Origin: a candidate division WOR-3 bacterium
Lineage (GTDB): Bacteria > Hydrothermota > Hydrothermia > LBFQ01
DNA length: 64,000 nt
Assembly: GCA_015492295.1 (NCBI GenBank)
Contig: WGFI01000121.1
Span: forward strand, 2,787 to 66,786
Reading direction: 5' to 3'
The translations under genes were made by a program, and so were the position numbers. The notes below the pieces were generated by a model. That model searched no databases, was not told the DNA's origin, and worked only from the letters and a program-made list of their open reading frames with translations. Each line of letters opens with the position of its first letter. The stretch's first letter is position 1. Shown here piece after piece: positions 9,455 to 41,544 of the stretch.

Positions 9455-10584
9455 AAAAATCCCCAGCTATATAGATAATTAAAAAATGTTTTCGCGGATG
9501 ATTTCCATGAGAACCTTTTAAAAAGTGAAGGGTATTTGGTAATTAAATTTCTTCTAAAATCATCATCCTCCAACCTGTTTAGTTTCTCTATGAGATCGTC
9601 GGTATCGTGTGGATCAACAAAGATAAAATATCCTTTATACAACTCCTTAAAAACTTCAATATCGGATACTATAACGGGTGCTCCGCATGCGGCGGCTTCC
9701 AATGGGGGTAAGCCAAAACCTTCCATAAGCGAAGGATAAACGAAGGCAAAACAATTGCTGTATAAAACCCTTAATGTTTTGTCATCAACATATCCAAGGA
9801 ATTTTACTCTATCCAGAACTTTCAATTCATTTGCTAAGGTTAAAAGCTCATTTTTGACCTTTGCAAAAGCGGTTCCCGCTGCTATGAAAACCTTATCTTT
9901 AACCTTCGTCAGGGCCTTGATTATAAGTCCTATATTTTTTCTCTTTATTATATCTCCAACATAAAGAATATATTCCCCCCTTGCTAGTCCTAGCTTATGA
10001 AGAACGCTCTCGTCATATATAGGTTTGTATATGTTGGTATCAATACCGAGATATACAACACCTATCCTATCTTCGGATAATTCATAGAATTCCATCATAT
10101 CCTTTTTAACAGCATTGGAATCCACAAAAACTTTGGCCCCTTTACCCAATATTATAGGCATTTGAAACCGATAGTAGTATCTTACTAGCAAGGGTGTTTT
10201 GAAGTCCTTAAACTTAAGATTTATTAAATCATAAACAAAAATCACTTGCTTTTCTCCGTATAACAGAGAACTCTCATAGGATGTTGAACATATATAGGTA
10301 TAACCTTTTAGGAGAAAGTTTTGCCAAAAAAATCTTCTTATATTAGCGCGGGTACCTAAGGAAGGAGCCAGGTTCAACGATATTTTCTTAAATTTTTCTT
10401 TATTTGCACCTTCTGGTATAACGGGTGATAGTATTTCATAATCTCCATCAAACAACGAAAACTCTCTTAACAAAAAATACGAAACCCTACCTATACCTCG
10501 TGGCCTGTTATCGAGAAATGGAGCCACTATACCCAATTTCAAGTTGCATATTCTAAGGTTGAAAGAAGTAAGACTATAATTCAT
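9451..10584 (-). CDS. glycosyltransferase family 1 (GT4)
   Basis: EGFGLPPLEAAACGAPVIVSD motif. Translationally coupled to the upstream GT. Confidence 0.75.
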   Translation of the reverse strand: MNYSLTSFNLRICNLKLGIVAPFLDNRPRGIGRVSYFLLREFSLFDGDYEILSPVIPEGANKEKFKKISLNLAPSLGTRANIRRFFWQNFLLKGYTYICSTSYESSLLYGEKQVIFVYDLINLKFKDFKTPLLVRYYYRFQMPIILGKGAKVFVDSNAVKKDMMEFYELSEDRIGVVYLGIDTNIYKPIYDESVLHKLGLARGEYILYVGDIIKRKNIGLIIKALTKVKDKVFIAAGTAFAKVKNELLTLANELKVLDRVKFLGYVDDKTLRVLYSNCFAFVYPSLMEGFGLPPLEAAACGAPVIVSDIEVFKELYKGYFIFVDPHDTDDLIEKLNRLEDDDFRRNLITKYPSLFKRFSWKSSAKTFFNYLYSWGFL

Positions 10585-10639
10585 AGTACTATCCTTTTAA
10601 GTATTTCTTGATAAATTGACAACCTTATAATATTTTACT

Positions 10640-12322
10640 ATGGTATGGTTTATTGTTGGCGATACCTTATTGCCCGCGTTTGAGGTTGAACCGATAGAGG
10701 TTATAGAGTACTATTCCAAGGATGATCCAATAAACGGTTTGAAAGTCTTAGGGGGAGACTTCATAAGGAGAGGACCAAAATTCGCATCCGATGTGTATTT
10801 TCACGGATTCAAATCCTCGCAGATGAGCATAGTTATTGATGGTGAAAGGTTTCCGCCTGCATGTCCAAATCGTATGGATGTTTCGTTGGTGAGGATAAAT
10901 CCCCTTGAAACCGATGAGATTATGGTAAATTCCACCCCAAATATTCAATCGGGTCTCGGAGGCGGTATATATGTTAAGAGGAGAACACCTTCACTCCGAA
11001 CCCTCATCTTAACCTACATAAAATTATCCGCCCTTTCGGAGAGATCCCTTGAATTCGCCGGAGCGTTTGAGAGGTCAAATTATGGTGTATATATCAGACA
11101 TTCTGTATCCAGTACATATCTCAACGGTGCAGGTAAGGATTTCCCAGAGCTCTACGGTTATAAGGATGATGTTAAGGAGCAGTACAAGACTTATGAATTC
11201 TCCTTTACGGGAAAGTATGGGGGTATCAAGTATCATACAGGCGTATGGTACTATAAGGATGTTCTTTTCCCTTATCTACGAATGGATGAAAGGGAGAATC
11301 TGGCGTTTTCCCTTTCAGCATCTATCAGCGGAAATAAAGTATATTTCAACTATACCAAACACAAAATGGATAACGCTCTCAGAAAATATTCAAGTTATAT
11401 GATGACGGATGCTGAGGGTATGAATTTGGGGCTTAGCGGGAGATTCTACGAGATATATTACCATAAATGGGATGCTTACAACTACATGGGATATATAAAA
11501 AGTCATATGATACCCGATATATCGCTACTCAGAGGCGTTTTGAGTTTTAAAAGAGAACTCATTAACCTGAACTTTAACATGCATTTCGGGGTGGAAACCT
11601 CCAAAAGAGGAAGTGAAAGTTGGTTCTCGGACGGTCTTAGGTTTTTCGTTCCATTCGGCGCAAGCGTATCCTACAAGAATGTAAGTATCTATACGCTATC
11701 CGAACCGCCCGATTTGAAGGAGTTATACATAGACCTCCCGAAATGGAAAGGGAATTATAGACTCAAACAACCTATGAATGCGGGTATATCCATTGATTTT
11801 ACAGGTTATCTCTTATCCCTGAACATCTTCGCCAACTATGTTTTAAACTATGTCAGAATGATCAGATATGATAATATCACCACCTACGATAATACAAATG
11901 CTTTCATAACGGGTTTATCGTTGAAGCTCACAGAAAGGTACTTTGACATAGTTGTAAATTACGATTACGCTCAGGATATTAAACATGATATTCCGCTTGC
12001 GGAAATACTGCCTTTGCGCATAACAGCGACTTTATACACGCCTTCCGTCCTCAACTTTCAGGGCTTTTTGAGGTTGAACTATGAGGATGCTCAGGTTAGG
12101 GTTGATACATCCTTAAATGAAATCCCTTCCGGATCCTGGAAGACGGTAGATTTAGGCTTAAAATTACCTTTGAAAAATATAACATTTGAAATAACGACCT
12201 TCAATCTTTTCAACACCGTATATTACCGTCATTTATCGTACATAAGGAATCCGTTTTCAAGGGGTGTTAAGGTTTATGAGCCCGGGAGAAGGGTGGAACT
12301 AACAGTTAAGGGTGGTTTCTGA
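10640..12322 (+). CDS. TonB-dependent-receptor-like outer-membrane beta-barrel protein, no recognisable signal peptide
   Basis: Plug-domain-like N-terminus (LKVLGGDFIRRGPKFASDVYFHGF...SIVIDGERF...NIQSGLGGGIYVKRR). C-terminus ends GGF (aromatic terminal residue typical of OMPs). No N-terminal hydrophobic leader. Confidence 0.5.
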   Translation: MVWFIVGDTLLPAFEVEPIEVIEYYSKDDPINGLKVLGGDFIRRGPKFASDVYFHGFKSSQMSIVIDGERFPPACPNRMDVSLVRINPLETDEIMVNSTPNIQSGLGGGIYVKRRTPSLRTLILTYIKLSALSERSLEFAGAFERSNYGVYIRHSVSSTYLNGAGKDFPELYGYKDDVKEQYKTYEFSFTGKYGGIKYHTGVWYYKDVLFPYLRMDERENLAFSLSASISGNKVYFNYTKHKMDNALRKYSSYMMTDAEGMNLGLSGRFYEIYYHKWDAYNYMGYIKSHMIPDISLLRGVLSFKRELINLNFNMHFGVETSKRGSESWFSDGLRFFVPFGASVSYKNVSIYTLSEPPDLKELYIDLPKWKGNYRLKQPMNAGISIDFTGYLLSLNIFANYVLNYVRMIRYDNITTYDNTNAFITGLSLKLTERYFDIVVNYDYAQDIKHDIPLAEILPLRITATLYTPSVLNFQGFLRLNYEDAQVRVDTSLNEIPSGSWKTVDLGLKLPLKNITFEITTFNLFNTVYYRHLSYIRNPFSRGVKVYEPGRRVELTVKGGF

Positions 12323-12438
12323 TGTAAGTATTGTGGGTTAAGTGGGCTAATTTAAACACTTAACTGTATAGCCTTTGATACAACCAGATATCCTAGGGTC
12401 ATCCCATTATAAACATCGCCCTGATAATACCTTCCGCG

Positions 12439-13569
12439 TTGGAAGAGAGCAAGCTGGTATTATCTCCTCTAATGGAAATATGCGACGATTATGAGTTAAA
12501 AGGTAATACGATTGTTTTCAATGTTAAAAATGAACTTCTAGTCCATATGATAAAGGACAGGTTCAGGAACGATATAACCAGACTTGAAAACAAAGGGATC
12601 AAGGTTGAGTTTAGATATCCAGCGAAGGAAATATATTATGAGAGTTTCAACAATTTCTTTTATGGTAAGGAAAACGAATTTACGGTTTTAGCTTTGAAGA
12701 GCCTTATAACCAACAGCGTATATTATAGGGTTGCCGTGCTATTTGGGGATTCCGGATTGGGTAAAACCCATCTTTTGAAGGCGTTGGCAAATGAATCGCT
12801 GAAGCTCAGTAAAAAACCTGTATATTTCTCGGCCCACAAGGTCTTTACGACACTTTTGGATTCTTACAGGCAGAGAAAAAAACCCGATTTTGATTTTCTC
12901 AAAGGTGCCGAGGTTATACTCATAGATGATTTGCATCTGGTATCCAATAGGTCCTTCGTATTGGATTTCATATCACGACTTATGGATAAGGTTGAAACCA
13001 CAAAGAAAGTTCTGATAATGGCTTCGCAGGGAAATATAAATTCCTTCTCCGGAAACAGATCCTTTAAAACCCGTCTTATGTCATCTTTACGGGTCTCCCT
13101 AAGTATTCCATCGGTAGGCGTTAGAAAGAGGATATTTATAAGCGCTTGCGACAGATTCGGCGTTAGTCCGAACATAAGCATAACGAACTATGTGTCGGAG
13201 AATATAACGAACCCTAGGGCCATAATCGGTGCCGCCACCCGATTTAAAGCTTACTACGATGTTTATGGTAAATATCCCGAAACCGACGAGTTTATGGAAA
13301 TTATTGAGGATCTGTGCGATGAGGAGAGTTTGGACATTTTTAAGGTCTTCGGTAAGGGGAAACCCGGCATATATGTCGCGGCGCTGTTTTTAAAGAAAAT
13401 GGGAAAATCTTCTAAGGAAATATCCGAGATGCTGGGTTGTTCAAGATCAAGCGTATATAATTACATAGAACGGGCAAAGGAGGTATTAAAGAAGGATAAA
13501 AATTTGGAAAGGAAGTTCAACGAGCTCGTTAAGGAATTTCAGTTTAGACGCTTCCCACCTTTACATTGA
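12439..13569 (+). CDS. divergent DnaA-like AAA+ ATPase with DnaA domain-IV-like HTH
   Basis: Walker A GDSGLGKTHLLKALANE. Walker B VILIDDLHLV. ASQ sensor. C-terminal EISEMLGCSRSSVYNYIERAKEV parallels DnaA domain IV (EIGxxFGGRDHTTVxHAxxKI). TTG start at 12439; an ATG alternative at 12472. Confidence 0.6.
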   Translation: MEESKLVLSPLMEICDDYELKGNTIVFNVKNELLVHMIKDRFRNDITRLENKGIKVEFRYPAKEIYYESFNNFFYGKENEFTVLALKSLITNSVYYRVAVLFGDSGLGKTHLLKALANESLKLSKKPVYFSAHKVFTTLLDSYRQRKKPDFDFLKGAEVILIDDLHLVSNRSFVLDFISRLMDKVETTKKVLIMASQGNINSFSGNRSFKTRLMSSLRVSLSIPSVGVRKRIFISACDRFGVSPNISITNYVSENITNPRAIIGAATRFKAYYDVYGKYPETDEFMEIIEDLCDEESLDIFKVFGKGKPGIYVAALFLKKMGKSSKEISEMLGCSRSSVYNYIERAKEVLKKDKNLERKFNELVKEFQFRRFPPLH

Positions 13570-14980
13570 CGAATACCGCTGGTGAGCTTCCATGTCCAGT
13601 GTGCATAGTTTGACCGGGCTCCCCCTTTCCACAATTAAGCAAACCCCAGAGCTTCCATTCCTCTTTTCCACCGACCGCAACCATGGAATTCCAAAACTCC
13701 GGAGTTATACCGTAATAAACGACATTCCGTAAGGGCTCAGCCAACTTCCCATTTCTTATTCTGTACGCCACTTCCGTGGCGAACTGGAAGTTCAACCTTC
13801 TTTGATCTATGGACCAAGATTTATTCCCATCAACGAAAACTCCATCCTTGATCTCTGAGATCAGATCATCCAAACTACCCTCTCCCGGTAAGAGATTTAT
13901 ATTGGTCATTCTTACCATAGGCATTCTGTTATAAGATGAGGCTCTCGCGGTTCCACCGCTCCTTTTCAAACCTATAGCCCAAGCGCTATCCCTTGAAGAT
14001 AGGTATCCGACCAATGTTCCCTCCTGTATCAGGGGTATCGTTTGCGCCTCAACGCCTTCATCATCCCAACCGAAGGTCCCAAGACCTCTCGGCGTTTTAG
14101 CATCGGCGACTATATTCATGAGTTTTGACCCGTATTTAAACTTACCGAGTTTGTCCAATGTGGCGAAACTCGTTCCAGCGTACGAAGCCTCATAACCTAT
14201 AACCCTATCCAGTTCCAAGGGATGACCTACGCTTTCGTGAATCTGCAAAGCCATCTGATGACTGCCGACCACCAAAGTCGTTTCCATTTCAGGTAATTTA
14301 TCGGCCTTCGCGAACATAATGGCTTCCTCCCTTATTCTCTCGGCGTTTCCAACGAAATCCATCTCATTTATTATCTCATAACCCCCTTGTAAGCTGTTTC
14401 CACCGTGCGGAGCCGGATAGGATCTCGTTTGTAGATTTCCATCGACGAAAGCCCAAGCGGTATAACCCCCTCCTACCTCGTATATGGTCTGTCTTATTCG
14501 CGTTCCCTCCGTATTTATGAATATCTTTTCCGTCTTGAAGAATATTAAATGTCCCTCCCTGAGTATTATACGAGAATCTTTTGAAAGGATCTCATCAACT
14601 TTCATAAGTAGGTTTATCTTCTCCTCAATGGGTATCTTGAAAGGATCCATTTCCATAGGCGTCTCATATACACCTTCATGCACGGGTTCCGAAAGGAAAT
14701 CCGCTGGTTTATTTATAACCCGATAAGAGCTTTCGGCGTATTTCTTGGCCTTTTCGGCGGTTCTAACAACATCGTCAATGAAGGTTGAGCTCGTGGATGC
14801 GAAACCTATGGCACCTTTCACAACGGCCCTTATGCCTATACCTTCAAGGGTATCCTCACCCAATCTTTCAACCTTTCCATTCTCAACATTCACACGCTGG
14901 ATCGTGGTTCTTACATATCTCGCTTCCCCATAATCTACTCCCTTTAATCTTTCAAGTGCAATATCAAGTATATTCTCCAT
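13544..14980 (-). CDS. tldD: TldD/PmbA family metalloprotease
   Basis: HESVGHPLE HExxxH motif. N-terminus MENILDIALERLKGVDYGEARYV typical of TldD. Confidence 0.8.
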   Translation of the reverse strand: MENILDIALERLKGVDYGEARYVRTTIQRVNVENGKVERLGEDTLEGIGIRAVVKGAIGFASTSSTFIDDVVRTAEKAKKYAESSYRVINKPADFLSEPVHEGVYETPMEMDPFKIPIEEKINLLMKVDEILSKDSRIILREGHLIFFKTEKIFINTEGTRIRQTIYEVGGGYTAWAFVDGNLQTRSYPAPHGGNSLQGGYEIINEMDFVGNAERIREEAIMFAKADKLPEMETTLVVGSHQMALQIHESVGHPLELDRVIGYEASYAGTSFATLDKLGKFKYGSKLMNIVADAKTPRGLGTFGWDDEGVEAQTIPLIQEGTLVGYLSSRDSAWAIGLKRSGGTARASSYNRMPMVRMTNINLLPGEGSLDDLISEIKDGVFVDGNKSWSIDQRRLNFQFATEVAYRIRNGKLAEPLRNVVYYGITPEFWNSMVAVGGKEEWKLWGLLNCGKGEPGQTMHTGHGSSPAVFVNVKVGSV

Positions 14981-19033: not shown

Positions 19034-20407
19034 CTACCTGAGTATGCGCTTGTATATTCTATTTCCCGACCTTATGAAGTACACCCCCGTAGGGAGATTC
19101 CTAAAATCACCCTTAACGAGAGATCCATCAACACGATATATTTTAATATCGGTGCGTCTGTCCTCTAAGGATAAGCTCTCGTCCGCAGAAGTGCTTATGG
19201 TTCTCGCGTAATAAACGGCTCCAGCATCATCCCCATAGTAGTCGTTAGCCCATATTGCGTATAGATTTCCCCCATCATATATAAACCCATTATAATCGTG
19301 CCCAGCCGGACTTTCATTGAAATAATAATCGTGATCGGAAACCCTTCCGGGCGGTGAGAATGTCGTCCCCCAGTTGGTTGAGTACGCCCACTTTGTTGTC
19401 CAAAAAGTCCCAACTTTTTCCTGCCACATAACATATATTGTTGAGGGTGAGGAGCTGGTTATCATAGGTAGCACTTGATCAGATGAAGTCTGGGCCACAT
19501 ACCTGTTATTCCAAGTTAAGCCCCCATCCGTTGAATACGCTACCCCAACATTACAATAGGAACCGTTGGGCTTTATAAATGCTACTGCTATATTGTTCCC
19601 TTGGGCGGTTATGTTATTATGTATTTTCGCTGGTCGGTTAAAGTTCGGGCAATAGGTTGATGATCCAGGTGAAAACGATACCACATCACCCAAGGATGTC
19701 CAAGTGGCCCCATTGTCCGTTGATTTTCTAACCCTTATCTTTATATAAGTTGGCCAACTGTTAAAGTTATTCTGGGAAAGATAGACCGTTGAGCCATCCT
19801 TCCAGAAGTACGCCACAGTTGAAACCACATCGGATAACCTTACGGTATTCCAAGTGGCACCTTCATCCGTACTTCTCGCTATGTTTATCTCATAGTTTCC
19901 ATACTTATCGGTCGTATATGCAACGAGTAAGTTTCCACCACCTAAGGCGATTATCCATGGTTTATCCTTGAAGTACATCCAACTATCATTAGGGGGAAGT
20001 ATGCTACATGTCCAATCGGTTACGGTATCAGGCCTTGATCCAATGTTCTTACAAAAGTAAACCTCTCCCGTGGGTGTATAAGGATTACAGTATATCATTC
20101 CAACAGCGTAAAACCTGTTCGGATTCGTTGGATCCGCGGCCACAGAAGGATCACCTATCCAGCAATTTATAGTGTCCGAAGGTGGTAGGTACCACACAAA
20201 TTTCCAAGTTGCCCCACCGTCTGAACTTATAGCAAAATCATTGGCTGAGAAAAAACTACTCCAATCCGTATCTATCCAATGAGCCGCTATCCACGACGAA
20301 GATTTTGCCAATGAAGCTTCCAGTTGATCCATGTTCGTTGTTATGTCCCAGTTTGATACCTTAATGTTGGTCCCAAAAGGTGGATCAACAATCAAAAATA
20401 TCAACAT
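19034..20407 (-). CDS. BNR/Asp-box repeat (sialidase-like) protein with T9SS C-terminal sorting domain
   Basis: Four Asp-box repeats (SSDGGATW, STDEGATW, STDNGATW, STDGGLTW). C-terminus GVYFIRSGNRIYKRILR resembles the T9SS CTD. No N-terminal signal peptide in this ORF. Confidence 0.65.
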   Translation of the reverse strand: MLIFLIVDPPFGTNIKVSNWDITTNMDQLEASLAKSSSWIAAHWIDTDWSSFFSANDFAISSDGGATWKFVWYLPPSDTINCWIGDPSVAADPTNPNRFYAVGMIYCNPYTPTGEVYFCKNIGSRPDTVTDWTCSILPPNDSWMYFKDKPWIIALGGGNLLVAYTTDKYGNYEINIARSTDEGATWNTVRLSDVVSTVAYFWKDGSTVYLSQNNFNSWPTYIKIRVRKSTDNGATWTSLGDVVSFSPGSSTYCPNFNRPAKIHNNITAQGNNIAVAFIKPNGSYCNVGVAYSTDGGLTWNNRYVAQTSSDQVLPMITSSSPSTIYVMWQEKVGTFWTTKWAYSTNWGTTFSPPGRVSDHDYYFNESPAGHDYNGFIYDGGNLYAIWANDYYGDDAGAVYYARTISTSADESLSLEDRRTDIKIYRVDGSLVKGDFRNLPTGVYFIRSGNRIYKRILR

Positions 20408-26774: not shown

Positions 26775-27953
26775 ATGGATTTACATCAGAATGTGGTTCC
26801 TACGCTGCCTCTGTTGGTTAAGAGGACGGTTGAGGAGATAGAGGAGGAGATTCTCTCCACCAATTTGAATGTGGGGGTTTTGATACCCGCCTTGTACAGC
26901 GACTTTTCCCAACCCGAAATGTTTAAAATTATGCAGTCTTTATCTGAAACCAAGGGGATAAGCAGGGTTTTTATAGTGTTGGATAGGGCGAGTTTGGAAG
27001 AGTTTAGGGAGGCTTTTAATAAGGTTGAAGAGATCTTGGGGGAGAAGGGCATAGTGATATGGAATGACAATCCAGCGTTAAAGGAGATAAGGCAGAATAT
27101 AGCGAGGGAATTCGTTTTGGGTCAGAGGGGTAAGGGTATGGCTGTCTGGATGGGCTTGGGTTATATAATAGGAAGAATGGATACACCCATACTTGTGATG
27201 CACGATGCGGATATAAAGACATATACGCCCTATATTCCTCTTCTCCTGGCCTACCCCATCGCTAAGTTGCAATACGCTTTTACGAAAGGATACTACGCGA
27301 GATTTGGAAACAGGTTGTTCGGTAGGGTTGTAAGATTGTTCTACTTCCCTATAATAAGGACACTTAAAATGGTCTTTGGTTCAAGCGAATTCCTTGAATT
27401 CTTGGGGGATTTCCGTTATCCTCTATCAGGGGAAATGGGAGGATATGTTAGCATATTCCGTAATATGAGGATACCCTCCGATTGGGGTATGGAGGTCAGC
27501 ATACTCTCGGAGACTTATAGGGTTTTAAAGGTTGAAAGTATAGCCCAAGTGCAGATAGCTGGTAGGTACGATCACAAACACAGAAGTAGGGATGATCTGA
27601 GGAAAATGGTAATTGATATATTCAAAACATTCTTGGTGGAACTGACTTCAAGGGGCGTAGTTTTCCCAAGCGGTATATACAAAACCTTGAAACATACATA
27701 CATAAATGTGGCAAAGGAATATGTGGAAACATATATGGCCGTAAGCATGATGAACGGTTTAAAGACGAACATACACAGGGAGTATAGATACATAGAGGTT
27801 TTTTCCGATTGTATAGAGCAGGCGATAATGGAGTTTGAGAATGAGAGCGCCCCTTCACCGAAGCTTCCCATATGGGATAGGGTTGAGGCCGCCCTTCCCG
27901 GCACCTTACTTCAAATAGTTGATGCAGTTGAGGAGAGTAAGAGGCTCATTTAA
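26775..27953 (+). CDS. GT81-family glucosyl-/mannosyl-3-phosphoglycerate synthase-like glycosyltransferase
   Basis: Collinear motif matches to GpgS as remembered: VLIPAL, GKGMAVW (cf. PGKGEALW), HDADI (cf. IDSDL), FTKGYYARF...GRV (cf. VKSFYRRPL...GRV), AQVQIAGRYDHKH (cf. AQVNLGxRxH). Not searched. Confidence 0.55.
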   Translation: MDLHQNVVPTLPLLVKRTVEEIEEEILSTNLNVGVLIPALYSDFSQPEMFKIMQSLSETKGISRVFIVLDRASLEEFREAFNKVEEILGEKGIVIWNDNPALKEIRQNIAREFVLGQRGKGMAVWMGLGYIIGRMDTPILVMHDADIKTYTPYIPLLLAYPIAKLQYAFTKGYYARFGNRLFGRVVRLFYFPIIRTLKMVFGSSEFLEFLGDFRYPLSGEMGGYVSIFRNMRIPSDWGMEVSILSETYRVLKVESIAQVQIAGRYDHKHRSRDDLRKMVIDIFKTFLVELTSRGVVFPSGIYKTLKHTYINVAKEYVETYMAVSMMNGLKTNIHREYRYIEVFSDCIEQAIMEFENESAPSPKLPIWDRVEAALPGTLLQIVDAVEESKRLI

Positions 27954-28048
27954 TTATAGCGTCAGGCAAGCTTTTCATAATCCCCTCTCAAAGGCAGAAA
28001 CGCCATCCACCCTCAACTATCACTGGATCACTTATAATCATTATATCA

Positions 28049-28474
28049 TCACCTCACCAAATACAACGGGCTTATCTCTATCTCGTATTCATAAGTCCCA
28101 AAAGTGTCAGCAAGGGGACCTATATTCAATATCAAGGGAACAAAACTTCTTCTCCAACAGGGTGGAGAGCCCCAATACTCCCATATCCATTTCGGAGGAT
28201 TAAAAACATCAAACTCTTTCCTTAAAGTGTCAAGGTTTATTCTTATCTCTAACCACGATGAGTTAAGAGTTTGGATAACAAAGAAACCCCTACAATACTT
28301 CTGATATACAACCAAACCACCTATATCATACCTCCCTTTTCCTCTGATATAAAACACGAGATACTTTCCCCAGTCAAGCAGATCAAGAGGATAGCCTTTA
28401 AGAGTTGAACCGAGAAGAGGCTTAAACTCCCTCGTCTTCCAGTCTCTCTTGTAATACTCCCACCTTCTTTGCAT
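28049..28474 (-). CDS. uncharacterised protein; possibly the 3' part of a frameshifted gene with ORF 28321..28635
   Basis: ORF track. An overlapping upstream ORF in another frame on the same strand. Confidence 0.3.
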   Translation of the reverse strand: MQRRWEYYKRDWKTREFKPLLGSTLKGYPLDLLDWGKYLVFYIRGKGRYDIGGLVVYQKYCRGFFVIQTLNSSWLEIRINLDTLRKEFDVFNPPKWIWEYWGSPPCWRRSFVPLILNIGPLADTFGTYEYEIEISPLYLVR

Positions 28475-28728
28475 TCACCCTTCGGTTTCGGTATATCCTC
28501 GCTTACAGGTAAGGTATCAAAGTTCTTTATGAACCAAGCACCATAATAGAACTCCACGACACCCCAAGACTTCACTATACTATCCGCCTGCCTACTCTCA
28601 TCAAGTTGAGAAAGAAAATACATAAGCATCAGCATAAAGATACATTATAAGGCTGAAACACCATCTTTGGAAACGAATTTATCGCTTACAATGAAAAGAA
28701 ATCGTTCATCCATATAATTCCAATAGGT

Positions 28729-29727
28729 ATGAACGTCATAATAGCATATTTTGGCATAAGCGATATGGTTTCGGGTAAGGATGATATAGGTATATTGACC
28801 GCCCCCTACGAGTATTATAGGGAGGTTCTTACGGGTGATTTCGTCTCATCGGCTGTGAGTTTCTGGACGGGAACGACACAAAACTTCACCGTATCGGGCA
28901 TACCCGGAGGTGCAAATGTTATTAAGGCGCTTCTATTCTGGGGATGCGAGTGTAATAATCCTTCCGATCTCGCAAATATAACTTTCAATGGAAGTCCTAT
29001 AACTGGTACCGTTATAGCAAACACATCAACCTTATGTTGGGGTACCAGCAGCTACTATGTTTATGCGGCCGATGTGACATCCTTCGTATCTGGCAACGGA
29101 ACATACACCATAAGCGTTCCTCAGGCCTTACCAACCACACCGGGTGCGGATGGAGCCACATTGTATGTGGTATATTGCGATGGGACTCTACCCAAGCGAA
29201 CGATAAGCGTATATGCTATGGCACAGTACCTCAATACTTCTTCATTCTCTTGGAATCAAACGGGTTTCACCGCTACGACCACCCCATCCGCGAAGGCATC
29301 TTTAACGGTGGGCGACCCTCAGGATGGGATTCCCAACGATGGATATTTCAATGGCAACTTTATAGGATACTTTGACGGAACCGTTCCGGGAAACCATTAT
29401 GGATTCTGGGAGGGCGATGTATCAACCTGGGTACCTCCATCCGCCACATCCATAAGTTGGACGCTTTATGCGCAGTGTTCAGGTCCATGCGATTGTATAT
29501 CTCCGAATGTCAGCGTCTTTTCCGTAACTTCTGTGGATTCATCTACGATCATAACCTGCTCCTTAGGTTATGATGATGGTCTGAATGTCAGCGAGAACGG
29601 AAGAATCGGAGATTTCGGCGAAGTCATATACGATATAAACGGCAGGAAAGTTGAATGGAACCAGATAACTCGTGGAGTGTATTTCATAATCTCAAATGGT
29701 AGGGCTAGGAAGCTCATAGTCAAGTAG
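28729..29727 (+). CDS. T9SS C-terminal-domain cargo protein, function unknown
   Basis: C-terminus GVYFIISNGRARKLIVK (T9SS CTD-like). Cys-rich, Ser/Thr/Gly-rich body. Confidence 0.5.
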   Translation: MNVIIAYFGISDMVSGKDDIGILTAPYEYYREVLTGDFVSSAVSFWTGTTQNFTVSGIPGGANVIKALLFWGCECNNPSDLANITFNGSPITGTVIANTSTLCWGTSSYYVYAADVTSFVSGNGTYTISVPQALPTTPGADGATLYVVYCDGTLPKRTISVYAMAQYLNTSSFSWNQTGFTATTTPSAKASLTVGDPQDGIPNDGYFNGNFIGYFDGTVPGNHYGFWEGDVSTWVPPSATSISWTLYAQCSGPCDCISPNVSVFSVTSVDSSTIITCSLGYDDGLNVSENGRIGDFGEVIYDINGRKVEWNQITRGVYFIISNGRARKLIVK

Positions 29728-33226: not shown

Positions 33227-36200
33227 TCACCTCCTTATAAATTTATAAACCTTTTTTCCAAGTTTGAGCATATAAACCCCCCTCGGAATACCTTTCAAAT
33301 CCACCTTTACATATCCTTCACCCTTTACACTCATAACTTTCCTTCCCGTTGGGGAATATATGCTCCCAGCTATGCGTCCTTCTTTGAAAATTTCAATGTA
33401 GTTCCTCCCGAAAACCACCTTACTCATCTCCACTTTACGATTCTCCATCACGGATACGAGTATAGGTTCATCGGGTAAGGAATCTACGGGGGAATTCGTG
33501 GCCCACCTGTTATAAAATGGCATCCCCCATTTCACGCTACCTCCGAAATTCCTCCAAGAGTAAAGTTTATTCGCCTCCGTAGGTGCGAATATGTATATGT
33601 ATCCATCATAATTGACGAGGCTCGGCGTTGAATATACGGTGTTGATTCTGAATCTGTTGTGGTCCGAGAGATCAATTGGGAATCCGTAAAGGTCCTTTCT
33701 AAGGTAAGAGTAAGCGTGCAGATAGCTTCTCGCATCCGATATTACAACTTCATCCTTGCCATCCCCGTTTATATCTCCCGTAGTCGCCATCCTACCCCTT
33801 AAAGTGGCATCTTCGGAGAATGTGTCTATAAGAACAAACTGGGAATCAATTCTATAAACCTTCACATAGGGGAATGTTTGATGATAAAAGGCTATGTCAT
33901 CGTTTCCATCGCCATCAAAGTCCAAAGGTAGGCATACACTTAGAGGATTATAAGCCGAGGAATCCACCATAATTATCGTTCCCGATGGGGATATTATGGA
34001 ATTCCTATGCCCGCATGTTATGATTTCAGGGGTACTATCACCGATAAAATCCCATACGAATAACCACCTTGAAGTCCTAACATATATAGGGAATCCCGAC
34101 AATTCGTTCAGGTTTTGATCAAAGATATGGAGGGAATCTCCGAGTTTTACAACTATCTCCCAATTCCCATCACCATCAAAGTCGTAGGTCGCGGGAGGCG
34201 AGATGAAACTCGTATCCGAGAAATCGGCCAACCTGTACTTAACCAGCATTCCGGATGGATTGTAAAGGAATATGCTGCCTTTACGACTTATCACCAGAAT
34301 GTTTAAATTTGATGATGACTTAGTTATGGCGAGGTACAAAGGATAAGGGGTTGAATCGGCATAAGAGGGGAAGTAAGGGTAGGGGACACTCCAAAGTACG
34401 GCACCATCTGAGCTTCGCAGGGCGTGGAGGTAGAATGTGGTTGCGACTATCACTTCAAGTTTTCCATCGGAATTTATATCTGCGACGACAGGATGCGTTT
34501 CAATCCAACTTCCGAGATCCGTCCTCCATATTTCCGAACCGTCAAGCTTTAATGCGTATATCCTATTAAAAGCCGAAGCCGTTATCATCTCAGGTTCCGC
34601 CGTGTTGGTTAGAAGTTGGGCGAATATCGGCCCTGAGGTCTTGGGATATTTGGGAACACTGCTGAAACGGATATATTCAATATCCTTAACGAACCACAAA
34701 CTTGGATTTGGAGATTCAACCGTTGAGAAAACCGTATCACCTTCTATTCCATCCTGAACAACGACCACGGAAAAGTTCTTGGGTGAAAAATCATCGGTTA
34801 GGTATGTGTAATTGGATCCCGTCAATGTATCGTAATTCACGGGTTGCCCATTCACAAAGACCCTCCACGAATACTTTCTACCCGTGATACCCGTATATCC
34901 CCATCTTAGGGTTATACCTCCGTTCAGGGGCTCAGAAGAGTACCAGTCTATTGAGACGGTGGGGGTATCTATCCTTATTCTATATGTACCGAAGAACTTC
35001 GGACCCGCGTACAGGTTAAACCTTATCCACCCACCGTAAGGGAAACTCCCTCGCAGATAATAAACCAAGGTATGATTCGTGAATTCGCCTGGGGCGAGCT
35101 TTGTTATGGTATTACCATACAATGGGGTCAATCCGCTGCTATCAATCACGATCCTCACATCAAATGCCGTATCGCTTCCCGAGTTTGAAACCTCAAACAT
35201 GAGCAAAAGCGTATCGGAATAGTACCTCCATTTTGCCGAATGAAACACGAGTCTCGGACCACCGATCCATACATACGCCGAATCCGTATAACCACCGGCG
35301 TATATCCTTATCTTGGTGAATTTATTCCCATCCGAGAACGGTGATCTTACCACGGTCCAATCAAATCTTACGGAACTTCCAGGTGGTATATTCGCTCCGC
35401 TGGGTAGGGTTATGGGCATCAGATCGGGGGATGTTAGTATGGGAGATACGAAGATGCCTGCTGATCCTATGTTCTTTATCCAGACATGCAAGGTCGCGGT
35501 GTCGTTCGTTGATGTTAAGGTCGCCGAATCTATCTTCAAGGCGTAGTTTGAAAATCCAGCTTTTAAGCTTCCGGTATATATTAGAGAATTTGGATGCCAA
35601 GCGGTCCAATACAGCGTATCGGATCTCTTCACCCTCAAAGTCAGTGTTCCGCTTAGATTGGTGAAACCATATCCTACGACTTCCCTGTCATCCCTCAAAG
35701 AGATCTTAACGAAGGGTTTGGGTGAGAGTGTGGTTGAATCAAGGACGGTAAAGGTTATAAGGGAATCATTTACGGTATAGGATACCATAAGCTTCTGACG
35801 AGCATCGTTATATACCCTAAGCAGGGGATCCCCTACGATATGGTAAGATAGGAGAAGATACCTATAAAGTGTTGAGTATTGCGATACATAGGAATAGGCG
35901 AATTTTCCATAATTCACTATCAATCCTATGTATGGGAAACCGTTGAAACTATTTAAGGAATCGTATATCACCGACCATATACTTGATACGGAGAGTCCAA
36001 AATCCGCCTTGGTTACCCCTACGGATGCCACAGCCTTACCCCTCTTTACGAATTCAAGCCCCAAGGAGTTGGAAAAAGGATCGTTTATAAAGCAACCAAC
36101 CCAACCTACTATGAATTTCGTATTTCCTGTGTTGAGTTCTTCCGTTCTTCTGTAATCAAACGCATCGTATGCGCTCAAAGAATTCCTCGTCATTATTATC

Positions 36201-39755: not shown

Positions 39756-41378
39756 ATGCTCTTCATAGACAGTTTGATGTATCTTGCGGGATTTACAAAT
39801 AGAGATCTCGGTTTTAAGAAAGATCTGTCCTATGAAACCGAATTAAAACCATCGGTGATTATAAATCTTTTAAATAACCCTCTGCGTGCGTTTCACTTCG
39901 TTGATTCTCTATCCAAGGAGTACAGAGAGTTTTCCTATGTGAAAGTCCTGAATCTCGTTTGGTGGGAAAAGTTTAGAAAGATAAAAGTATCAAACCGTAT
40001 GACCTACAAGGATAGCGTAATAGGGCATTTTATTGATGTCCTGCACTGCTACAATTACTTTAAAGATAGGGCATTCTCAAGGTTAAAACCTGAATTCATC
40101 AGTAAAGTTAAAACACCACTTAAAAAGTTATGGGATACGGTTGAAACTTCCGATACGCTTACGAAGGATGAGTATATGAAGTTGGCGAGAACCGTCTTAT
40201 GGAACCATCTTATGAATTCCCTTCTATGCCTCTTGAATGTTGATACATCAAAGGTTCCGAGATTAGAGGATACCGCAACTTACATATACAAAACTTTATA
40301 CGGTGATATAGCAATAGGTGGCGTAGGGAACGATATATATAAAGGGAATTTCGTTGCTATCTTGGATTTTGGTGGCGATGATGTTTATTATGTTGATAGC
40401 GAGGTTCTGATAGTTGATCTTTCCGGAGATGATGTTTATTATGGGAATGTTGGTTCGGGTTTCTTTGGCTCTTCCGCACTTTTTGACTTCAAAGGTGATG
40501 ATAAGTATATGTGCGGCGATATGTCATGCGCAAGCGGTATAATGGGATTCGGTTTCATATACGATGGTGAAGGGAACGACATCTATTACGGTGGTTATCA
40601 TTCCATCGGTGCAGGAACCTTCGGGGGAGGATTCTTGATAGACATGTCAGGCGATGATATATACAAGAGTGTTATTTACGGTCAGGGATTTGCTGGAACC
40701 TATGGCGTGGGTCTTCTTTTGGACGGATCCGGGAATGATGTATATACCATAGGATACGGACCTATACATGAGCCTCTGTATAAAACTCAACGGGAGGGTC
40801 TTGGTCAAGGGTTCAGCATAGGAATGAGGGAGGATTTTGGAGGAGGAATAGGAATACTTATGGATTTTAAAGGGAACGATGTCTATAACGCTGGAACCTA
40901 TGCCCAGGGTGTATCTTACTGGTATTCTTTGGGTATTCTGTACGATGGTGAAGGGGACGATAGATATATATGTACTCAATATTGTCAGGGCGCCGGAATC
41001 CATATATCCGTTGGGTTGCTTATGGATATATCGGGGGATGATATGTATTTTGCATTGAACGGCCCTTCCATAGGTGCGGCGCATGATCTCTCCGTGGGTT
41101 TCCTATACGATTCTCTTGGAAATGATTTCCATTACACCTATGGGGGATTAGGTATGGGATTAACGAATTCAACGGGTATTTTCGTGGATGTTTATGGAGA
41201 TGATAAGTACTATGTTATGCAATGTGATATATCCTTGGGTGGTGCCAATATTAAAAGGGAAATGGGTGGTATAGGTATGTTTGTTGATGCCCATGGGAAG
41301 GATGTTTATGGGTGTGATGTTAAAAATGGTGAAAGGTGGGTGAGGAGGATGTGGGGTATTGGATGGGATGGTGAGTAA
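39756..41378 (+). CDS. tandem-repeat protein with 12 copies of a ~26-aa G(D/N)DxY repeat; predicted beta-solenoid, possibly Ca-binding
   Basis: Repeats FGGDDVYY, LSGDDVYY, FKGDDKYM, GEGNDIYY, MSGDDIYK, GSGNDVYT, FKGNDVYN, GEGDDRYI, ISGDDMYF, SLGNDFHY, VYGDDKYY, AHGKDVYG at regular spacing. ~190-aa helical N-terminal domain. No signal peptide. Confidence 0.5.
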   Translation: MLFIDSLMYLAGFTNRDLGFKKDLSYETELKPSVIINLLNNPLRAFHFVDSLSKEYREFSYVKVLNLVWWEKFRKIKVSNRMTYKDSVIGHFIDVLHCYNYFKDRAFSRLKPEFISKVKTPLKKLWDTVETSDTLTKDEYMKLARTVLWNHLMNSLLCLLNVDTSKVPRLEDTATYIYKTLYGDIAIGGVGNDIYKGNFVAILDFGGDDVYYVDSEVLIVDLSGDDVYYGNVGSGFFGSSALFDFKGDDKYMCGDMSCASGIMGFGFIYDGEGNDIYYGGYHSIGAGTFGGGFLIDMSGDDIYKSVIYGQGFAGTYGVGLLLDGSGNDVYTIGYGPIHEPLYKTQREGLGQGFSIGMREDFGGGIGILMDFKGNDVYNAGTYAQGVSYWYSLGILYDGEGDDRYICTQYCQGAGIHISVGLLMDISGDDMYFALNGPSIGAAHDLSVGFLYDSLGNDFHYTYGGLGMGLTNSTGIFVDVYGDDKYYVMQCDISLGGANIKREMGGIGMFVDAHGKDVYGCDVKNGERWVRRMWGIGWDGE

Positions 41379-41446
41379 TTAAATCTTTTATTTCTGATAG
41401 ATGGGAGCTTTACAAGAAGTTTTTCGGCTTTATGATATTAAGATAA

Positions 41447-41544
41447 GGCGCTGGCAGGCCGTCTAATGTCTGCCCTACCCGTGGGTCGCGGGGAAGTTAA
41501 GCCCGTGGAGTGGGCTTTGCCCACGATGAAGCGGGAAGCCCCTC
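41447..41544. repeat. copy A of conserved noncoding element, with 25-nt GC-rich insertion relative to copy B
   Basis: TCTGCCCTACC at 41469-79. Hairpin GTGGGC-TTT-GCCCAC at 41511-25. GATGAAGC, 12 nt, then ATG of ORF 41545. Confidence 0.4.

What the first reader, a model, noticed from the sequence alone, without database searches (positions are those of the whole stretch)
12439..13569. Divergent DnaA paralog outside an origin-like context
The protein has DnaA-type AAA+ motifs (GLGKTHLL, LIDDL, ASQ) and a C-terminal HTH that parallels DnaA domain IV. The DnaA signature RDHTTV is replaced by SRSSVY, and the protein is only 376 aa with a short non-DnaA N-terminus. The flanks are an outer-membrane receptor gene and tldD. 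No dnaN/recF/gyrB is present, and only weak DnaA-box-like 9-mers (TGTGGGTTA, AGTGGGCTA at 12334-12350) were seen. It may be a regulatory DnaA homolog (Hda-like plus DNA-binding domain) or a replication initiator of an integrated or extrachromosomal element.
Basis: partly seen in the sequence, partly recalled or inferred. Interest (0 to 1): 0.55.

Follow-up and report, generated by a model that had tools for sequence, protein, structure and literature searches.

The report
Re-specified DnaA of a WOR-3 family
This gene encodes a strongly remodelled version of the bacterial replication initiator DnaA whose DNA-reading residues have been replaced; it occurs only in one family of hot-spring and hydrothermal-vent bacteria, where no ordinary DnaA was found, so it is probably their own initiator reading a new DNA signal.

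Summary
The ORF at 12439-13569 (+) is real and 376 aa long. It starts at a conserved TTG, 11 nt after a TGATAAT -10-like box.

It is collinear with DnaA. It has a truncated domain I, no linker, an AAA+ domain III and a domain IV-like HTH. It fails every DnaA membership threshold except the AAA+ Pfam domain. The DnaA signature RDHTTV is CSR[AS][ST]V, invariant across the family.

The family is tiny and discrete: two 50%-identity clusters among 1.84 billion representatives. The members with a published GTDB placement all fall in family LBFQ01 (Caldipriscus and JAADCS01; class Hydrothermia, phylum WOR-3).

The gene is chromosomal, syntenic and under purifying selection (dN/dS 0.05-0.14). It has no plasmid or phage relatives.

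Residue states shared only with the canonical DnaAs of the sister family DSFT01 show that it descends from the WOR-3 DnaA.

Canonical DnaA was found only in assemblies that lack this protein. No assembly was seen with both, but the absence test is not exhaustive.

A palindrome (GTTAAGTG-N12-CACTTAAC, 12337-12364) sits at a fixed distance upstream in both clades.

No oriC-like array lies nearby.

Best reading: the lineage's own DnaA with re-specified recognition (about 0.5). The main rival is an accessory regulatory paralog (about 0.3).

The parts
12439..13569 (+). Gene for the derived DnaA-family protein (376 aa, TTG start; the stop codon is included)
   Evidence: ORF list. Bac_DnaA Pfam hit. 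End-to-end hhalign to canonical DnaA, E 3e-38. AF2 model with pLDDT 93, whose best PDB matches are DnaA domains III-IV: 8btg, 2hcb, 3r8f, 1l8q. dN/dS 0.05-0.14 in relatives.
12487..12615 (+). Truncated domain I-like module (aa ~17-59; beta-beta-alpha-alpha-beta)
   Evidence: Domain-wise hhalign against canonical domain I gives P 2e-5 over 34 columns, while cross-domain controls give >=0.097. Secondary structure comes from the model. The module is absent from the Caldipriscus copies.
12634..13317 (+). AAA+ domain III. Walker A GDSGLGKTH is at 12745-12771. Walker B ILIDD is within 12913-12936. The Arg finger lies in FKTRLMSS at 13063-13086. Sensor II lies in NPRAIIGAA at 13210-13236.
   Evidence: Pfam PF00308. 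hhalign domain III E 4e-35. Conservation map. Coordinates.
13318..13551 (+). Domain IV-like HTH domain. The recognition helix CSRSSVYNYIERAKEVL is at 13438-13488. It replaces the DnaA signature RDHTTV..H.
   Evidence: hhalign against canonical domain IV: P 2e-6, 57 columns. Highest whole-domain TM-score is to E. coli DnaA domain IV, 1j1v (0.55/0.58 over 90 columns). Derived states are shared only with WOR-3-type DnaAs. There is no Bac_DnaA_C hit in 7 of 7 members; the sequence-level hits are to Sigma70_r4_2, HTH_23, YlxM and resolvase HTH families.
12422..12428 (+). -10-like box TGATAAT, 10 nt upstream of the TTG start (suggests a leaderless or near-leaderless transcript)
   Evidence: An ATAAT box at a fixed 11-12 nt from the start codon in all lineages of both clades. 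A similar arrangement occurs upstream of canonical dnaA in the sister family. Promoter function is inferred, not shown.
12337..12364 (.). Conserved palindrome GTTAAGTG-N12-CACTTAAC with an AAATTT centre, about 75-100 nt upstream of the start. It is a candidate operator, read here as two inverted CCACTT 'boxes'.
Evidence: AAGTG-N8-16-CACTT is unique in the 64-kb window, where 0.31 matches are expected. The exact pattern is at the same distance upstream of the gene in L019/L009 and L010. Degenerate copies occur in the other lineages. Which protein binds it is inferred.
10640..12322 (+). Upstream 560-aa ORF with no Pfam family; conserved syntenic partner in the hot-spring clade
   Evidence: The outer-membrane assignment was not tested.
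13544..14980 (-). tldD (PmbA_TldD), convergent with the gene; the two 3' ends overlap by 26 nt; conserved partner in the hot-spring clade

Best explanation
This is a vertically inherited, strongly derived DnaA. It arose from the WOR-3-type DnaA on the stem of GTDB family LBFQ01 (Caldipriscus, JAADCS01 and relatives; class Hydrothermia). It is most likely that lineage's own replication-initiator gene, not an extra copy.

Shown:
- The protein keeps the DnaA layout: a domain I remnant, AAA+ domain III and domain IV.
- It keeps the ATP-binding and oligomerisation residues: Walker A, Walker B DD, the Arg finger and sensor II.
- The base-reading residues of domain IV are replaced by an invariant CSR[AS][ST]VYNY helix.
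- It has lost several residues that are universal in canonical DnaA.

Inferred:
- ATP-bound protein oligomerises on DNA as DnaA does.
- It reads a new sequence. The best candidate is the inverted CCACTT pair kept about 87 bp upstream of its own start codon, where it would autoregulate as DnaA does at its own promoter.
- It initiates replication at an origin that lies outside this window and carries the new boxes.
For: Architecture and fold:
- hhalign is collinear with canonical DnaA, E 3e-38.
- Each domain matches only its counterpart.
- The AF2 model has pLDDT 93, and its best PDB matches are DnaA III-IV chains aligned over 323-332 columns.

Descent from WOR-3 DnaA:
- Q408->Y and H439->N are present in 7/7 family members and 9/9 WOR-3-type canonical DnaAs, and in 0/44 other DnaAs.
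- Loss of R281 shows the same 7/7, 9/9 and 0/44 split.
- A one-residue deletion before the signature is shared by all 16 but also occurs in 6 of the 44 others. GKEN is in 4/7 family members (the others have DKEN or EREN) and 5/9 WOR-3-type DnaAs, but also in 4 of the 44 others. These two are supporting features only.
- Family plus WOR-3 canonical DnaAs form an exclusive clade in 161 of 200 NJ bootstraps.

Distribution:
- Only two 50%-identity clusters exist among 1.84 billion representatives, then a drop from 533 to 159 bits.
- Nine GTDB species representatives carry it.
- The five carrier assemblies listed in PMC12542636 all belong to f__LBFQ01.
- Canonical DnaA is found in the sister family f__DSFT01: Thermoproauctor-like genomes of 27-30% GC, and S143-66.
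- All canonical-bearing assemblies (JBDRXJ, XL, XN, XO, XP, XQ, XR, XS, WGAQ, JBPMKV, JBPLLP) are disjoint from the family-bearing ones (JALUSD, JBDRWW, WO, WU, XE, XH, XF, LBFQ, JBMSAP, JAADCS, JAADDJ, WFXS, JALUCS, JALWYV, CAYRSH).
- Contigs carrying canonical dnaA have a different tetranucleotide signature from family-bearing contigs.
- A scan of JGI metagenomes with a WOR-3 DnaA profile found no Caldipriscus-like contig. Caldipriscus is a dominant population in Yellowstone streamer communities of that kind (PMC11696919).

Functional constraint: dN/dS is 0.05-0.14.

Context and regulation:
- A conserved TTG start follows a -10-like box, as at the sister family's dnaA.
- In one lineage the gene lies two genes after parA-parB.
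- The conserved upstream palindrome is unique in the window.
Against: - Absence of a canonical DnaA in the carrier genomes was not tested exhaustively. The word-indexed searches missed most relatives at about 40% identity (compare). Whole genomes could not be scanned.
- The Caldipriscus copies lack domain I altogether, which is unexpected for a sole initiator.
- One member lacks the sensor II arginine.
- Many residues universal in canonical DnaA are replaced, including the counterpart of E. coli E204, the YNP motif, QEE, and the glycine after the Arg finger.
- The protein diverges faster than its neighbour: 53% identity against 78% for TldD.
- No oriC-like array of canonical boxes or of the new half-site lies in the 64-kb window.
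- Only one palindromic site is seen per locus, which looks more like a transcription-factor operator.
- No AT-rich unwinding element lies consistently next to the gene.
- There is no positional orthology with the sister family's dnaA.
Confidence: 0.5

Rival explanations
1. Accessory paralog. A duplicate of the WOR-3 DnaA was neofunctionalised on the stem of family LBFQ01 into an ATP-dependent transcription or replication regulator. It binds a palindromic operator as a dimer or oligomer. An ordinary DnaA, not yet seen, still fires the origin.
For: - Only a single palindromic site is seen, upstream of its own gene, and there is no box array.
- Domain I is lost in Caldipriscus.
- Many DnaA-universal residues are lost, including the E204 counterpart.
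- It evolves faster than its neighbours.
- The HTH matches the sigma-r4, YlxM and resolvase families better than Bac_DnaA_C at the sequence level.
- It is not in an origin context in this window.
- The searches for canonical DnaA had poor recall at 40% identity.
Against: - No canonical DnaA was recovered from any of the 15 or more carrier assemblies. This includes several that are 90-92% complete and a species represented by at least six MAGs.
- The three WOR-3-type canonical clusters all rank in the top 150 of the exhaustive search. None belongs to a carrier lineage.
- Distribution against the sister family is complementary.
- The full DnaA layout and oligomerisation residues are retained.
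Confidence: 0.3
2. Sole DnaA homolog, but no longer the initiator. Canonical DnaA function was lost in family LBFQ01, replication starts by another route, and this protein survives only as a transcription factor.
For: The same observations that count against the initiator role also fit here: loss of domain I and of universal residues, and a single operator. The lack of any canonical DnaA in carriers fits too. From general knowledge, DnaA-independent replication is reported in some cyanobacteria and endosymbionts.
Against: - No alternative initiator was identified.
- The ATP-binding and Arg-finger residues stay invariant, which a plain HTH regulator would not need.
- This reading needs two rare events.
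Confidence: 0.1
3. Replication initiator of an integrated or extrachromosomal element.
For: DnaA-like initiators do occur on plasmids and phages (general knowledge). In one relative (L016) a tRNA gene and a repeat-bearing non-coding stretch lie 1-2 kb upstream.
Against: - The OMP-like ORF, the gene and tldD form a synteny conserved at 54% identity.
- The gene is found in every sampled species of a GTDB family.
- No integrase or other mobile-element gene lies within 30 kb. The XerC/D-like gene at 48988 sits among housekeeping genes.
- GC content is not anomalous.
- Plasmid and phage collections return only canonical DnaA at 20-26% identity.
- Derived residues are shared with the host phylum's own DnaA.
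Confidence: 0.03

Closest known systems
Canonical DnaA of the sister family DSFT01 (WOR-3-type; e.g. P0144/P0305 from Thermoproauctor-like genomes, P0421 from S143-66)
   Same: - Same domain order and same AAA+ fold.
- Shared lineage-specific states: Q408->Y, H439->N, loss of R281, a one-residue deletion before the signature, a G[KQR]E[NH] motif (GKEN in most) where most DnaAs have G.SN, and a helix tail RA+.L..KD.
- A non-ATG start close behind a -10-like box.
- No dnaN next to the gene in either group.
   Different: - The sister proteins pass Pfam DnaA_N and Bac_DnaA_C and keep [RK][DN]H[ST] in the signature.
- The family has CSR[AS][ST], a shortened domain I and no linker.
- It has lost the E204 counterpart and other universal residues.
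- It keeps Walker B DD where the sister proteins have D[N/G/A].
- Identity between the two groups is only about 20-23%.
Hda / HdaA (DnaA-related inactivator, TIGR03420)
   Same: A DnaA-type AAA+ module. Structures 3bos and 3sc3 are the next-best fold matches after DnaA. The TIGR03420 hit has E 3e-15.
   Different: From general knowledge, Hda has neither domain I nor domain IV. This protein has both counterparts. It scores 56 bits against a cutoff of 195. A clamp-binding motif was not tested.
Sigma-70 region 4 / YlxM (UPF0122) / resolvase-type HTH domains
   Same: At the sequence level the C-terminal 100 aa score best against these: 1xsv at E 7e-5, and Sigma70_r4_2 at 28-30 bits against a cutoff of 25.7. 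The recognition helix SR.sVYnyi.RA resembles their 'SRqaVYd.i.R' motif.
   Different: The whole six-helix domain superposes best on DnaA domain IV. It also carries WOR-3 DnaA-specific residues. The resemblance is therefore convergence or generic HTH similarity within a true domain IV, not a domain swap.
Second DnaA copies and DnaA-like plasmid or phage initiators (recalled from the literature, not tested here)
   Same: Divergent DnaA-family proteins found outside the dnaA-dnaN context.
   Different: Those coexist with a canonical DnaA or sit on mobile DNA. Here no canonical copy was found, and the gene is chromosomal and lineage-wide.

Membership tests
Chromosomal replication initiator DnaA (TIGR00362 / Pfam DnaA_N + Bac_DnaA + Bac_DnaA_C) | AAA+ domain III of the DnaA type (PF00308) | tested here: met
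   62 bits against a cutoff of 23, E 1e-16. hhalign for domain III gives E 4e-35. Best fold matches are 2z4r and 8bv3, with TMt 0.82-0.84.
Chromosomal replication initiator DnaA (TIGR00362 / Pfam DnaA_N + Bac_DnaA + Bac_DnaA_C) | Full-length equivalog score above the curated cutoff | tested here: not met
   TIGR00362 scores 106.4 bits against a cutoff of 343.9. NF001154 scores 92.9 against 410.
Chromosomal replication initiator DnaA (TIGR00362 / Pfam DnaA_N + Bac_DnaA + Bac_DnaA_C) | Domain IV recognised as Bac_DnaA_C (PF08299) | tested here: not met
   No PF08299 hit at E<=1 for the full protein or for any of the 7 C-terminal fragments. No DnaA chain appears at E<=10 in the PDB profile search. 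Homology is visible only by hhalign (P 2e-6), by TM-score 0.55/0.58 to 1j1v and by the shared derived residues.
Chromosomal replication initiator DnaA (TIGR00362 / Pfam DnaA_N + Bac_DnaA + Bac_DnaA_C) | DnaA signature and base-contacting residues (E. coli D433, H434, T435, H439; R407-Q408) | tested here: not met
   RDHTTV..H is replaced by CSR[AS][ST]VYN, invariant in 7 of 7 members. H434 becomes R, D433 becomes S, H439 becomes N and Q408 becomes Y.
Chromosomal replication initiator DnaA (TIGR00362 / Pfam DnaA_N + Bac_DnaA + Bac_DnaA_C) | Domain I (DnaA_N, PF11638) | tested here: inconclusive
   There is no Pfam hit. hhalign gives P 2e-5 over 34 columns, against controls of >=0.097. The model shows beta-beta-alpha-alpha-beta without the first two helices. 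The domain is absent from the Caldipriscus copies.
Chromosomal replication initiator DnaA (TIGR00362 / Pfam DnaA_N + Bac_DnaA + Bac_DnaA_C) | ATP binding and oligomerisation residues (Walker A, Walker B, Arg finger, sensor II) | tested here: met
   GxGK[TS], DD and the Arg finger are invariant. The sensor II arginine is present in 6 of 7 members. The E204 counterpart is lost.
Chromosomal replication initiator DnaA (TIGR00362 / Pfam DnaA_N + Bac_DnaA + Bac_DnaA_C) | Association with oriC (box array plus an AT-rich unwinding element, often next to dnaA/dnaN) | tested here: not met
   The window contains no dnaN, gyrB or recF. There is no cluster of TTATCCACA-like boxes; the maximum is 3 per 600 bp, inside a coding region. 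There is no cluster of the new half-site. No consistent AT-rich element lies beside the gene. The GC-skew minimum at 10-15 kb tracks the switch in gene orientation. The sister family's canonical dnaA also lacks dnaN adjacency, so this feature is weak in this order.
Chromosomal replication initiator DnaA (TIGR00362 / Pfam DnaA_N + Bac_DnaA + Bac_DnaA_C) | Being the genome's (only) DnaA | tested here: inconclusive
   No second DnaA homolog is present in the window or in any 10-20-kb family locus. No carrier assembly shares a canonical DnaA cluster. Whole genomes could not be scanned.
Hda (TIGR03420) | AAA+ module only, with no domain I or IV, and a score above cutoff | tested here: not met
   It scores 56.3 bits against a cutoff of 194.8. 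Counterparts of domains I and IV are present.
Hda (TIGR03420) | N-terminal beta-clamp-binding motif | not tested
   The N-terminus (MEESKLVLSPL...) was not analysed for clamp binding.
Sigma-70 region 4-like HTH (PF08281) | Score above the Pfam gathering threshold | tested here: met
   It scores 27.9-30.2 bits against a cutoff of 25.7 over about 27 residues of the HTH. The match covers only the HTH core. The residues shared with WOR-3 DnaA domain IV argue against a sigma-factor origin.
Plasmid or phage DnaA-like initiators | Location on or within a mobile element; relatives on plasmids or phages | tested here: not met
   The closest plasmid and phage matches are canonical dnaA genes at 20-26% identity. 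Chromosomal synteny is conserved.

The most novel reading that the evidence does not exclude
A whole family of free-living (hyper)thermophilic bacteria (GTDB f__LBFQ01: Caldipriscus, JAADCS01 and relatives) has no canonical DnaA. It initiates replication with this re-specified DnaA, whose domain IV reads a new box (core CCACTT). In Caldipriscus the protein works without domain I. That would be a natural re-wiring of origin recognition, and possibly of helicase recruitment, within Bacteria.
Probability: 0.45. Interest if true: 0.75.

Novelty: new variant of a known kind. Interest (0 to 1): 0.6.

Why it matters
DnaA and its 9-mer box are among the most conserved protein-DNA recognition pairs in Bacteria. 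The DnaA signature residues are close to invariant: H434 was present in 53 of 53 canonical sequences aligned here.

A lineage in which the only detectable DnaA has exchanged those residues would show how an essential initiator and its origin can co-evolve to a new code. The same protein has lost the E204 counterpart and, in one genus, domain I, yet stays under purifying selection.

Such a lineage would also supply a natural domain-I-less initiator for testing helicase-loading models. A pure culture from the phylum now exists (strain sy37, PMC12285271), although it was not checked here whether that strain carries this protein, so the question may become experimentally tractable.

If a canonical DnaA does coexist, the protein would instead be a new class of DnaA-derived, ATP-dependent DNA-binding regulator.

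There is also a practical point. Marker-gene sets that include the DnaA model TIGR00362 (from memory, GTDB's bac120 is one) will score these genomes as lacking it, and annotation pipelines label the protein only 'DnaA/Hda family' or 'ATP-binding protein'.

Tried and rejected
1. oriC next to the gene. The cumulative GC-skew minimum at 10.5-15 kb coincides with a switch in gene orientation. The AT-rich spot at 10585-10639 is a 55-bp divergent promoter region. There is no box cluster. Rejected as evidence for an origin.

2. AT-rich element upstream in L016 (25% GC in a 58% GC locus). It is not conserved in the other lineages and lies next to a tRNA and repeat region. Not pursued.

3. parA-parB next to the gene. 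This is seen only in L010, so it is weak.

4. Direct co-occurrence test. Whole genomes could not be scanned, so I used cluster look-ups and contig look-ups (all 12 used). These gave disjoint assembly sets but no proof of absence.

5. Limits of the word-indexed homolog searches. They missed most relatives at about 40% identity. One search missed the P0156 group and one search missed the P0144 group. Their silence is therefore weak evidence.

6. Literature. No paper pairs WOR-3 with DnaA. The Caldipriscus, sy37 and WOR-3 papers do not mention dnaA. Supplements held no K02313 or dnaA tables.

7. P0128 and P0309. These are the canonical DnaAs scoring highest against the family. P0309 has ordinary R/Q/H states and is not of the WOR-3 type. 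The origin of P0128 could not be looked up.

8. C-terminal domain as a swapped-in sigma-r4, YlxM or resolvase HTH. Searches suggested this. I rejected it because of the WOR-3 DnaA-specific residues and the whole-domain TM-score to 1j1v.

10. T. maritima-type 12-mer boxes. No cluster was found.
Full report
**Observation.** The ORF at 12439-13569 (+) exists and encodes 376 aa from a TTG start. All the quoted motifs are present: GDSGLGKTH (aa 103-111), ILIDDLH (aa 159-166), IMASQG and CSRSSVY (aa 334-340).

Pfam finds the DnaA AAA+ domain (PF00308: 62 bits against a cutoff of 23). It finds no Bac_DnaA_C. The C-terminus instead hits generic HTH families: Sigma70_r4_2, HTH_11 and HTH_23. NCBIfam's DnaA equivalog scores 106 bits against a cutoff of 344, and Hda scores 56 against 195. 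The nearest solved structures by sequence are DnaA from T. maritima, Aquifex and B. subtilis.

tldD downstream is confirmed. The upstream 560-aa ORF has no Pfam family. The window holds ordinary housekeeping genes and no dnaN, gyrB, recF or parAB.

**Anatomy.** A profile of the seven family members aligns end to end and collinearly with a profile of canonical DnaAs (E 3e-38). Cut into domains, each part matches only its own counterpart:
- domain I: P 2e-5
- domain III: E 4e-35
- domain IV: P 2e-6
- all six cross-domain controls: >=0.047

The N-terminus is therefore a shortened domain I, not a 'non-DnaA' segment, and the linker (domain II) is missing.

An AlphaFold model built on 60 sequences is confident (pLDDT 93.2). 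Its best PDB matches are DnaA domain III-IV chains aligned over 323-332 columns (8btg, 2hcb, 3r8f, 1l8q). Hda follows.

Walker A, Walker B (DD) and the Arg finger are invariant in the family. The sensor II arginine is present in 6 of 7 members. Many residues that are universal in canonical DnaA are replaced:
- YNP becomes YR[IV].
- The counterpart of E. coli E204 becomes Q, G, H, N or L.
- QEE becomes LEF.
- The glycine after the Arg finger becomes S or N.
- The E of the R.LEG motif becomes I.

**Is the C-terminal domain a real domain IV?** By sequence alone it looks more like a sigma-region-4, YlxM or resolvase HTH. A profile of the last 100 residues finds YlxM (1xsv, E 7e-5) and gamma-delta resolvase in the PDB, and no DnaA chain at E<=10. 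None of the 7 members hits PF08299.

Modelled alone, the domain has no significant Foldseek match. Its highest whole-domain TM-score is to E. coli DnaA domain IV bound to a DnaA box (1j1v: 0.55/0.58 over 90 columns).

The decisive evidence is a set of derived residue states. Two states are present in all 7 family members and all 9 WOR-3-type canonical DnaAs, and in none of 44 other DnaAs:
- Q408->Y
- H439->N

Loss of R281 shows the same split. Three further shared features are less exclusive: I->A in the helix tail (1 of the 44 others), a one-residue deletion before the signature (6 of the 44 others), and the RA+.L..KD tail.

The G[KQR]E[NH] motif upstream of Walker A is similar. Most of these proteins have GKEN, most other DnaAs have G.SN, and 4 of the 44 others also carry GKEN.

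So the domain is a genuine domain IV inherited from the WOR-3 DnaA. Within it, the signature R-D-H-[ST]-T became C-S-R-[AS]-[ST], and that helix is invariant across the family.

A neighbour-joining bootstrap on domain III groups the family exclusively with the WOR-3-type canonical DnaAs in 161 of 200 replicates. Both groups have long branches, so this is supportive only.

**Distribution.** The family is very small. The word-indexed search of 5.8 billion proteins found seven 90%-identity clusters and then a gap from E 7e-75 to 1.5e-16. The exhaustive HMMER search of 1.84 billion representatives found two 50%-identity clusters (649 and 533 bits) and then 159 bits.

Nine GTDB species representatives carry it. 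There are two clades:
- Hot-spring clade: the window, JBDRWW, CAYRSH and Caldipriscus LBFQ/JBMSAP. Its conserved block is [560-aa ORF][gene][tldD, convergent].
- Marine-vent clade: JAADCS, JAADDJ, WFXS (S141_60), JALUCS and JALWYV. Its conserved pair is [gene][HAD hydrolase].

The taxonomy table of PMC12542636 places JAADCS, JAADDJ, WFXS and Caldipriscus in o__LBFQ01; f__LBFQ01 (class Hydrothermia, phylum WOR-3).

Plasmid and phage collections contain only canonical DnaA, at 20-26% identity. Together with the synteny, this rules out a mobile-element origin.

The gene is under purifying selection. dN/dS is 0.05-0.14 in four close pairs, including the Caldipriscus copies that lack domain I. The neighbouring tldD gives 0.05-0.07. 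Over longer distances the gene diverges faster than its neighbour: 53% identity against 78%.

**Paralog or the lineage's own DnaA?** Canonical DnaAs that pass DnaA_N, Bac_DnaA and Bac_DnaA_C do exist in this order. I reached them through the exhaustive search and a cluster look-up, then through two further searches. They fall into three groups:
- Thermoproauctor-like group (P0144/P0305; loci of 27-30% GC)
- S143-66 group (P0156/P0421)
- P0129

Their assemblies are JBDRXJ, XL, XN, XO, XP, XQ, XR and XS; WGAQ; JBPMKV; and JBPLLP. S143-66 belongs to the sister family f__DSFT01, as does a 27.7% GC genus that matches the Thermoproauctor-like loci in base composition. None of these assemblies is a carrier of the derived protein, and no carrier assembly appears among them.

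This holds even within one study's MAG series. There, six MAGs carry the derived protein P0003 and eight other MAGs carry the canonical P0305.

Composition points the same way. Contigs with canonical dnaA correlate at 0.55-0.67 in tetranucleotide usage with most marine-clade family contigs, and those family contigs correlate at 0.83-0.96 among themselves. The lower-GC member L018 correlates poorly with both groups.

A JGI metagenome scan with a profile of the WOR-3 canonical DnaAs returned 23 loci. The close relatives were Thermoproauctor-like or S143-66-like, the rest were distant DnaAs of other composition, and none was Caldipriscus-like. Caldipriscus is one of the three dominant populations in Yellowstone streamer communities of that kind (PMC11696919).

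This is a complementary phyletic pattern. It favours the view that the protein is the descendant of dnaA in f__LBFQ01.

It is not proof, for three reasons:
- Whole genomes could not be scanned.
- The word-indexed searches demonstrably miss most relatives at 40% identity.
- The canonical DnaAs of this order are themselves only 36-44% identical to one another.

**Cis elements.** Upstream regions were anchored on the start codon. All lineages then show an ATAAT box 11-12 nt before a conserved TTG start, or ATG in one sub-lineage. In the window this is TGATAAT at 12422-12428. The arrangement suggests a leaderless or near-leaderless mRNA.

The sister family's canonical dnaA has a similar arrangement: TAGAAT or TAACAT 8-9 nt before a TTG, GTG or ATG start.

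About 75-100 nt upstream lies a palindrome with an AAATTT centre. In the window it is GTTAAGTG-N12-CACTTAAC at 12337-12364. The pattern AAGTG-N8-16-CACTT is unique in the 64-kb window, where 0.31 matches are expected. The exact pattern recurs at the same distance in L019 and L010, which are only about 40% identical in protein. Degenerate forms occur in the remaining lineages.

By my own estimate, the chance of three such placements in eight lineages is about 1e-9.

The arms contain CCAC, which is also the core of the canonical box. This is the best candidate for the protein's own site, and binding there would give autoregulation as DnaA shows at its own promoter. Binding is inferred, not shown.

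There is only one such site per locus. The window has no cluster of half-sites, of canonical boxes or of T. maritima-type boxes. No AT-rich element is consistently adjacent to the gene. The GC-skew minimum near 10-15 kb follows the switch in gene orientation. No origin is visible here.

The protein is a new, lineage-specific variant of DnaA with re-specified DNA recognition. It is chromosomal and vertically inherited. It is not a mobile-element initiator and not an Hda-like protein.

Whether it is the sole initiator or an accessory regulator beside an undetected canonical DnaA is the open point. I put the sole-initiator reading at about 0.5 and the accessory-paralog reading at about 0.3.

Counting against the initiator reading:
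- loss of domain I in Caldipriscus
- loss of the E204 counterpart and other universal residues
- the faster evolutionary rate
- the single palindromic site

Counting for it:
- the complementary distribution
- the retained ATP-binding and oligomerisation residues
- the conserved full layout

A profile search of a complete LBFQ01 genome would settle the matter in minutes. The sy37 genome would serve if it carries this protein.

Noticed in passing
L092-L104, L105-L114, L138 (canonical dnaA loci of the sister lineages); alignment A4 columns 332, 377, 526 and 558: All nine WOR-3-type canonical DnaAs lack the second Walker B aspartate: they have D-N, D-G or D-A instead of D-D. They also have E in place of the otherwise invariant R281, Y for Q408 and N for H439. 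The derived family keeps D-D. The canonical initiator of this order is itself unusual and may hydrolyse ATP poorly.
   Followed up: partly
L014 3794-4852, L015 9863-10891, L011 9983-11011: The Caldipriscus copies of the protein have no domain I. About 190 bp of non-coding DNA, with a terminator-like hairpin, separates the upstream ORF from the start of the AAA+ domain. tblastn finds no domain I elsewhere in these loci. The gene is still under purifying selection (dN/dS 0.13).
   Followed up: yes
L016 7700-9630: In one marine relative, a tRNA gene is followed by about 1.1 kb of non-coding DNA. That stretch holds three copies of a ~25-nt repeat (TTTCAG[CT]TTTTGAAGGTGCG-like) and a 244-aa ORF without a Pfam family. 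An 80-bp stretch of 25% GC (9701-9780) then lies about 170 bp upstream of the DnaA-like gene. This may be an insertion at the tRNA. It is not conserved in other lineages.
   Followed up: no
L013 9895-9970, L012 5055-5130: There are two -10-like boxes upstream of the gene. The first (TGATAATATCCACC) runs into a near-consensus canonical DnaA box, ATATCCAC. L010 and L016 have the same feature. A G7-TTATTAT-GC7 hairpin lies between the two boxes. Which start codon is used in this sub-lineage is unclear.
   Followed up: partly
window 13544-13569: The 3' ends of the DnaA-like gene and the convergent tldD overlap by 26 nt. A similar overlap (20 nt) is kept in the 54%-identical relative (L003 11103-11122).
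   Followed up: no
window 10640-12322: A 560-aa ORF has no Pfam family and ends in ...TVKGGF, a C-terminal aromatic residue typical of outer-membrane barrels. It is a conserved neighbour of the gene throughout the hot-spring clade. Its function is unknown.
   Followed up: partly
window 19034-20407 (-) and 47093-48472 (-): Two paralogous proteins of about 458 aa carry BNR/Asp-box repeats and lie 27 kb apart.
   Followed up: no
window 33227-37471 (-): A 1414-aa protein combines a C25 (gingipain-like) peptidase domain with FG-GAP and beta-propeller repeats. An 1162-aa fusion of an ABC-2 membrane domain and a peptidase M1 domain lies at 42259-45747.
   Followed up: no
window 48539-52195 (+): A run of genes: bifunctional nuclease domain, XerC/D-like tyrosine recombinase (48988-49821), DivIVA-like protein, FHA-TPR protein. 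A second DivIVA gene lies at 59002-59583. This may be a chromosome-segregation or cell-division cluster. It has no mobile-element context.
   Followed up: no
window 27953-28729 and 41378-42259: Two stretches of about 0.8 kb have no ORF of 150 aa or more and no Rfam or tRNA hit at gathering thresholds. GC is 39-40%. They were not examined further. No canonical DnaA-box cluster lies in them.
   Followed up: partly
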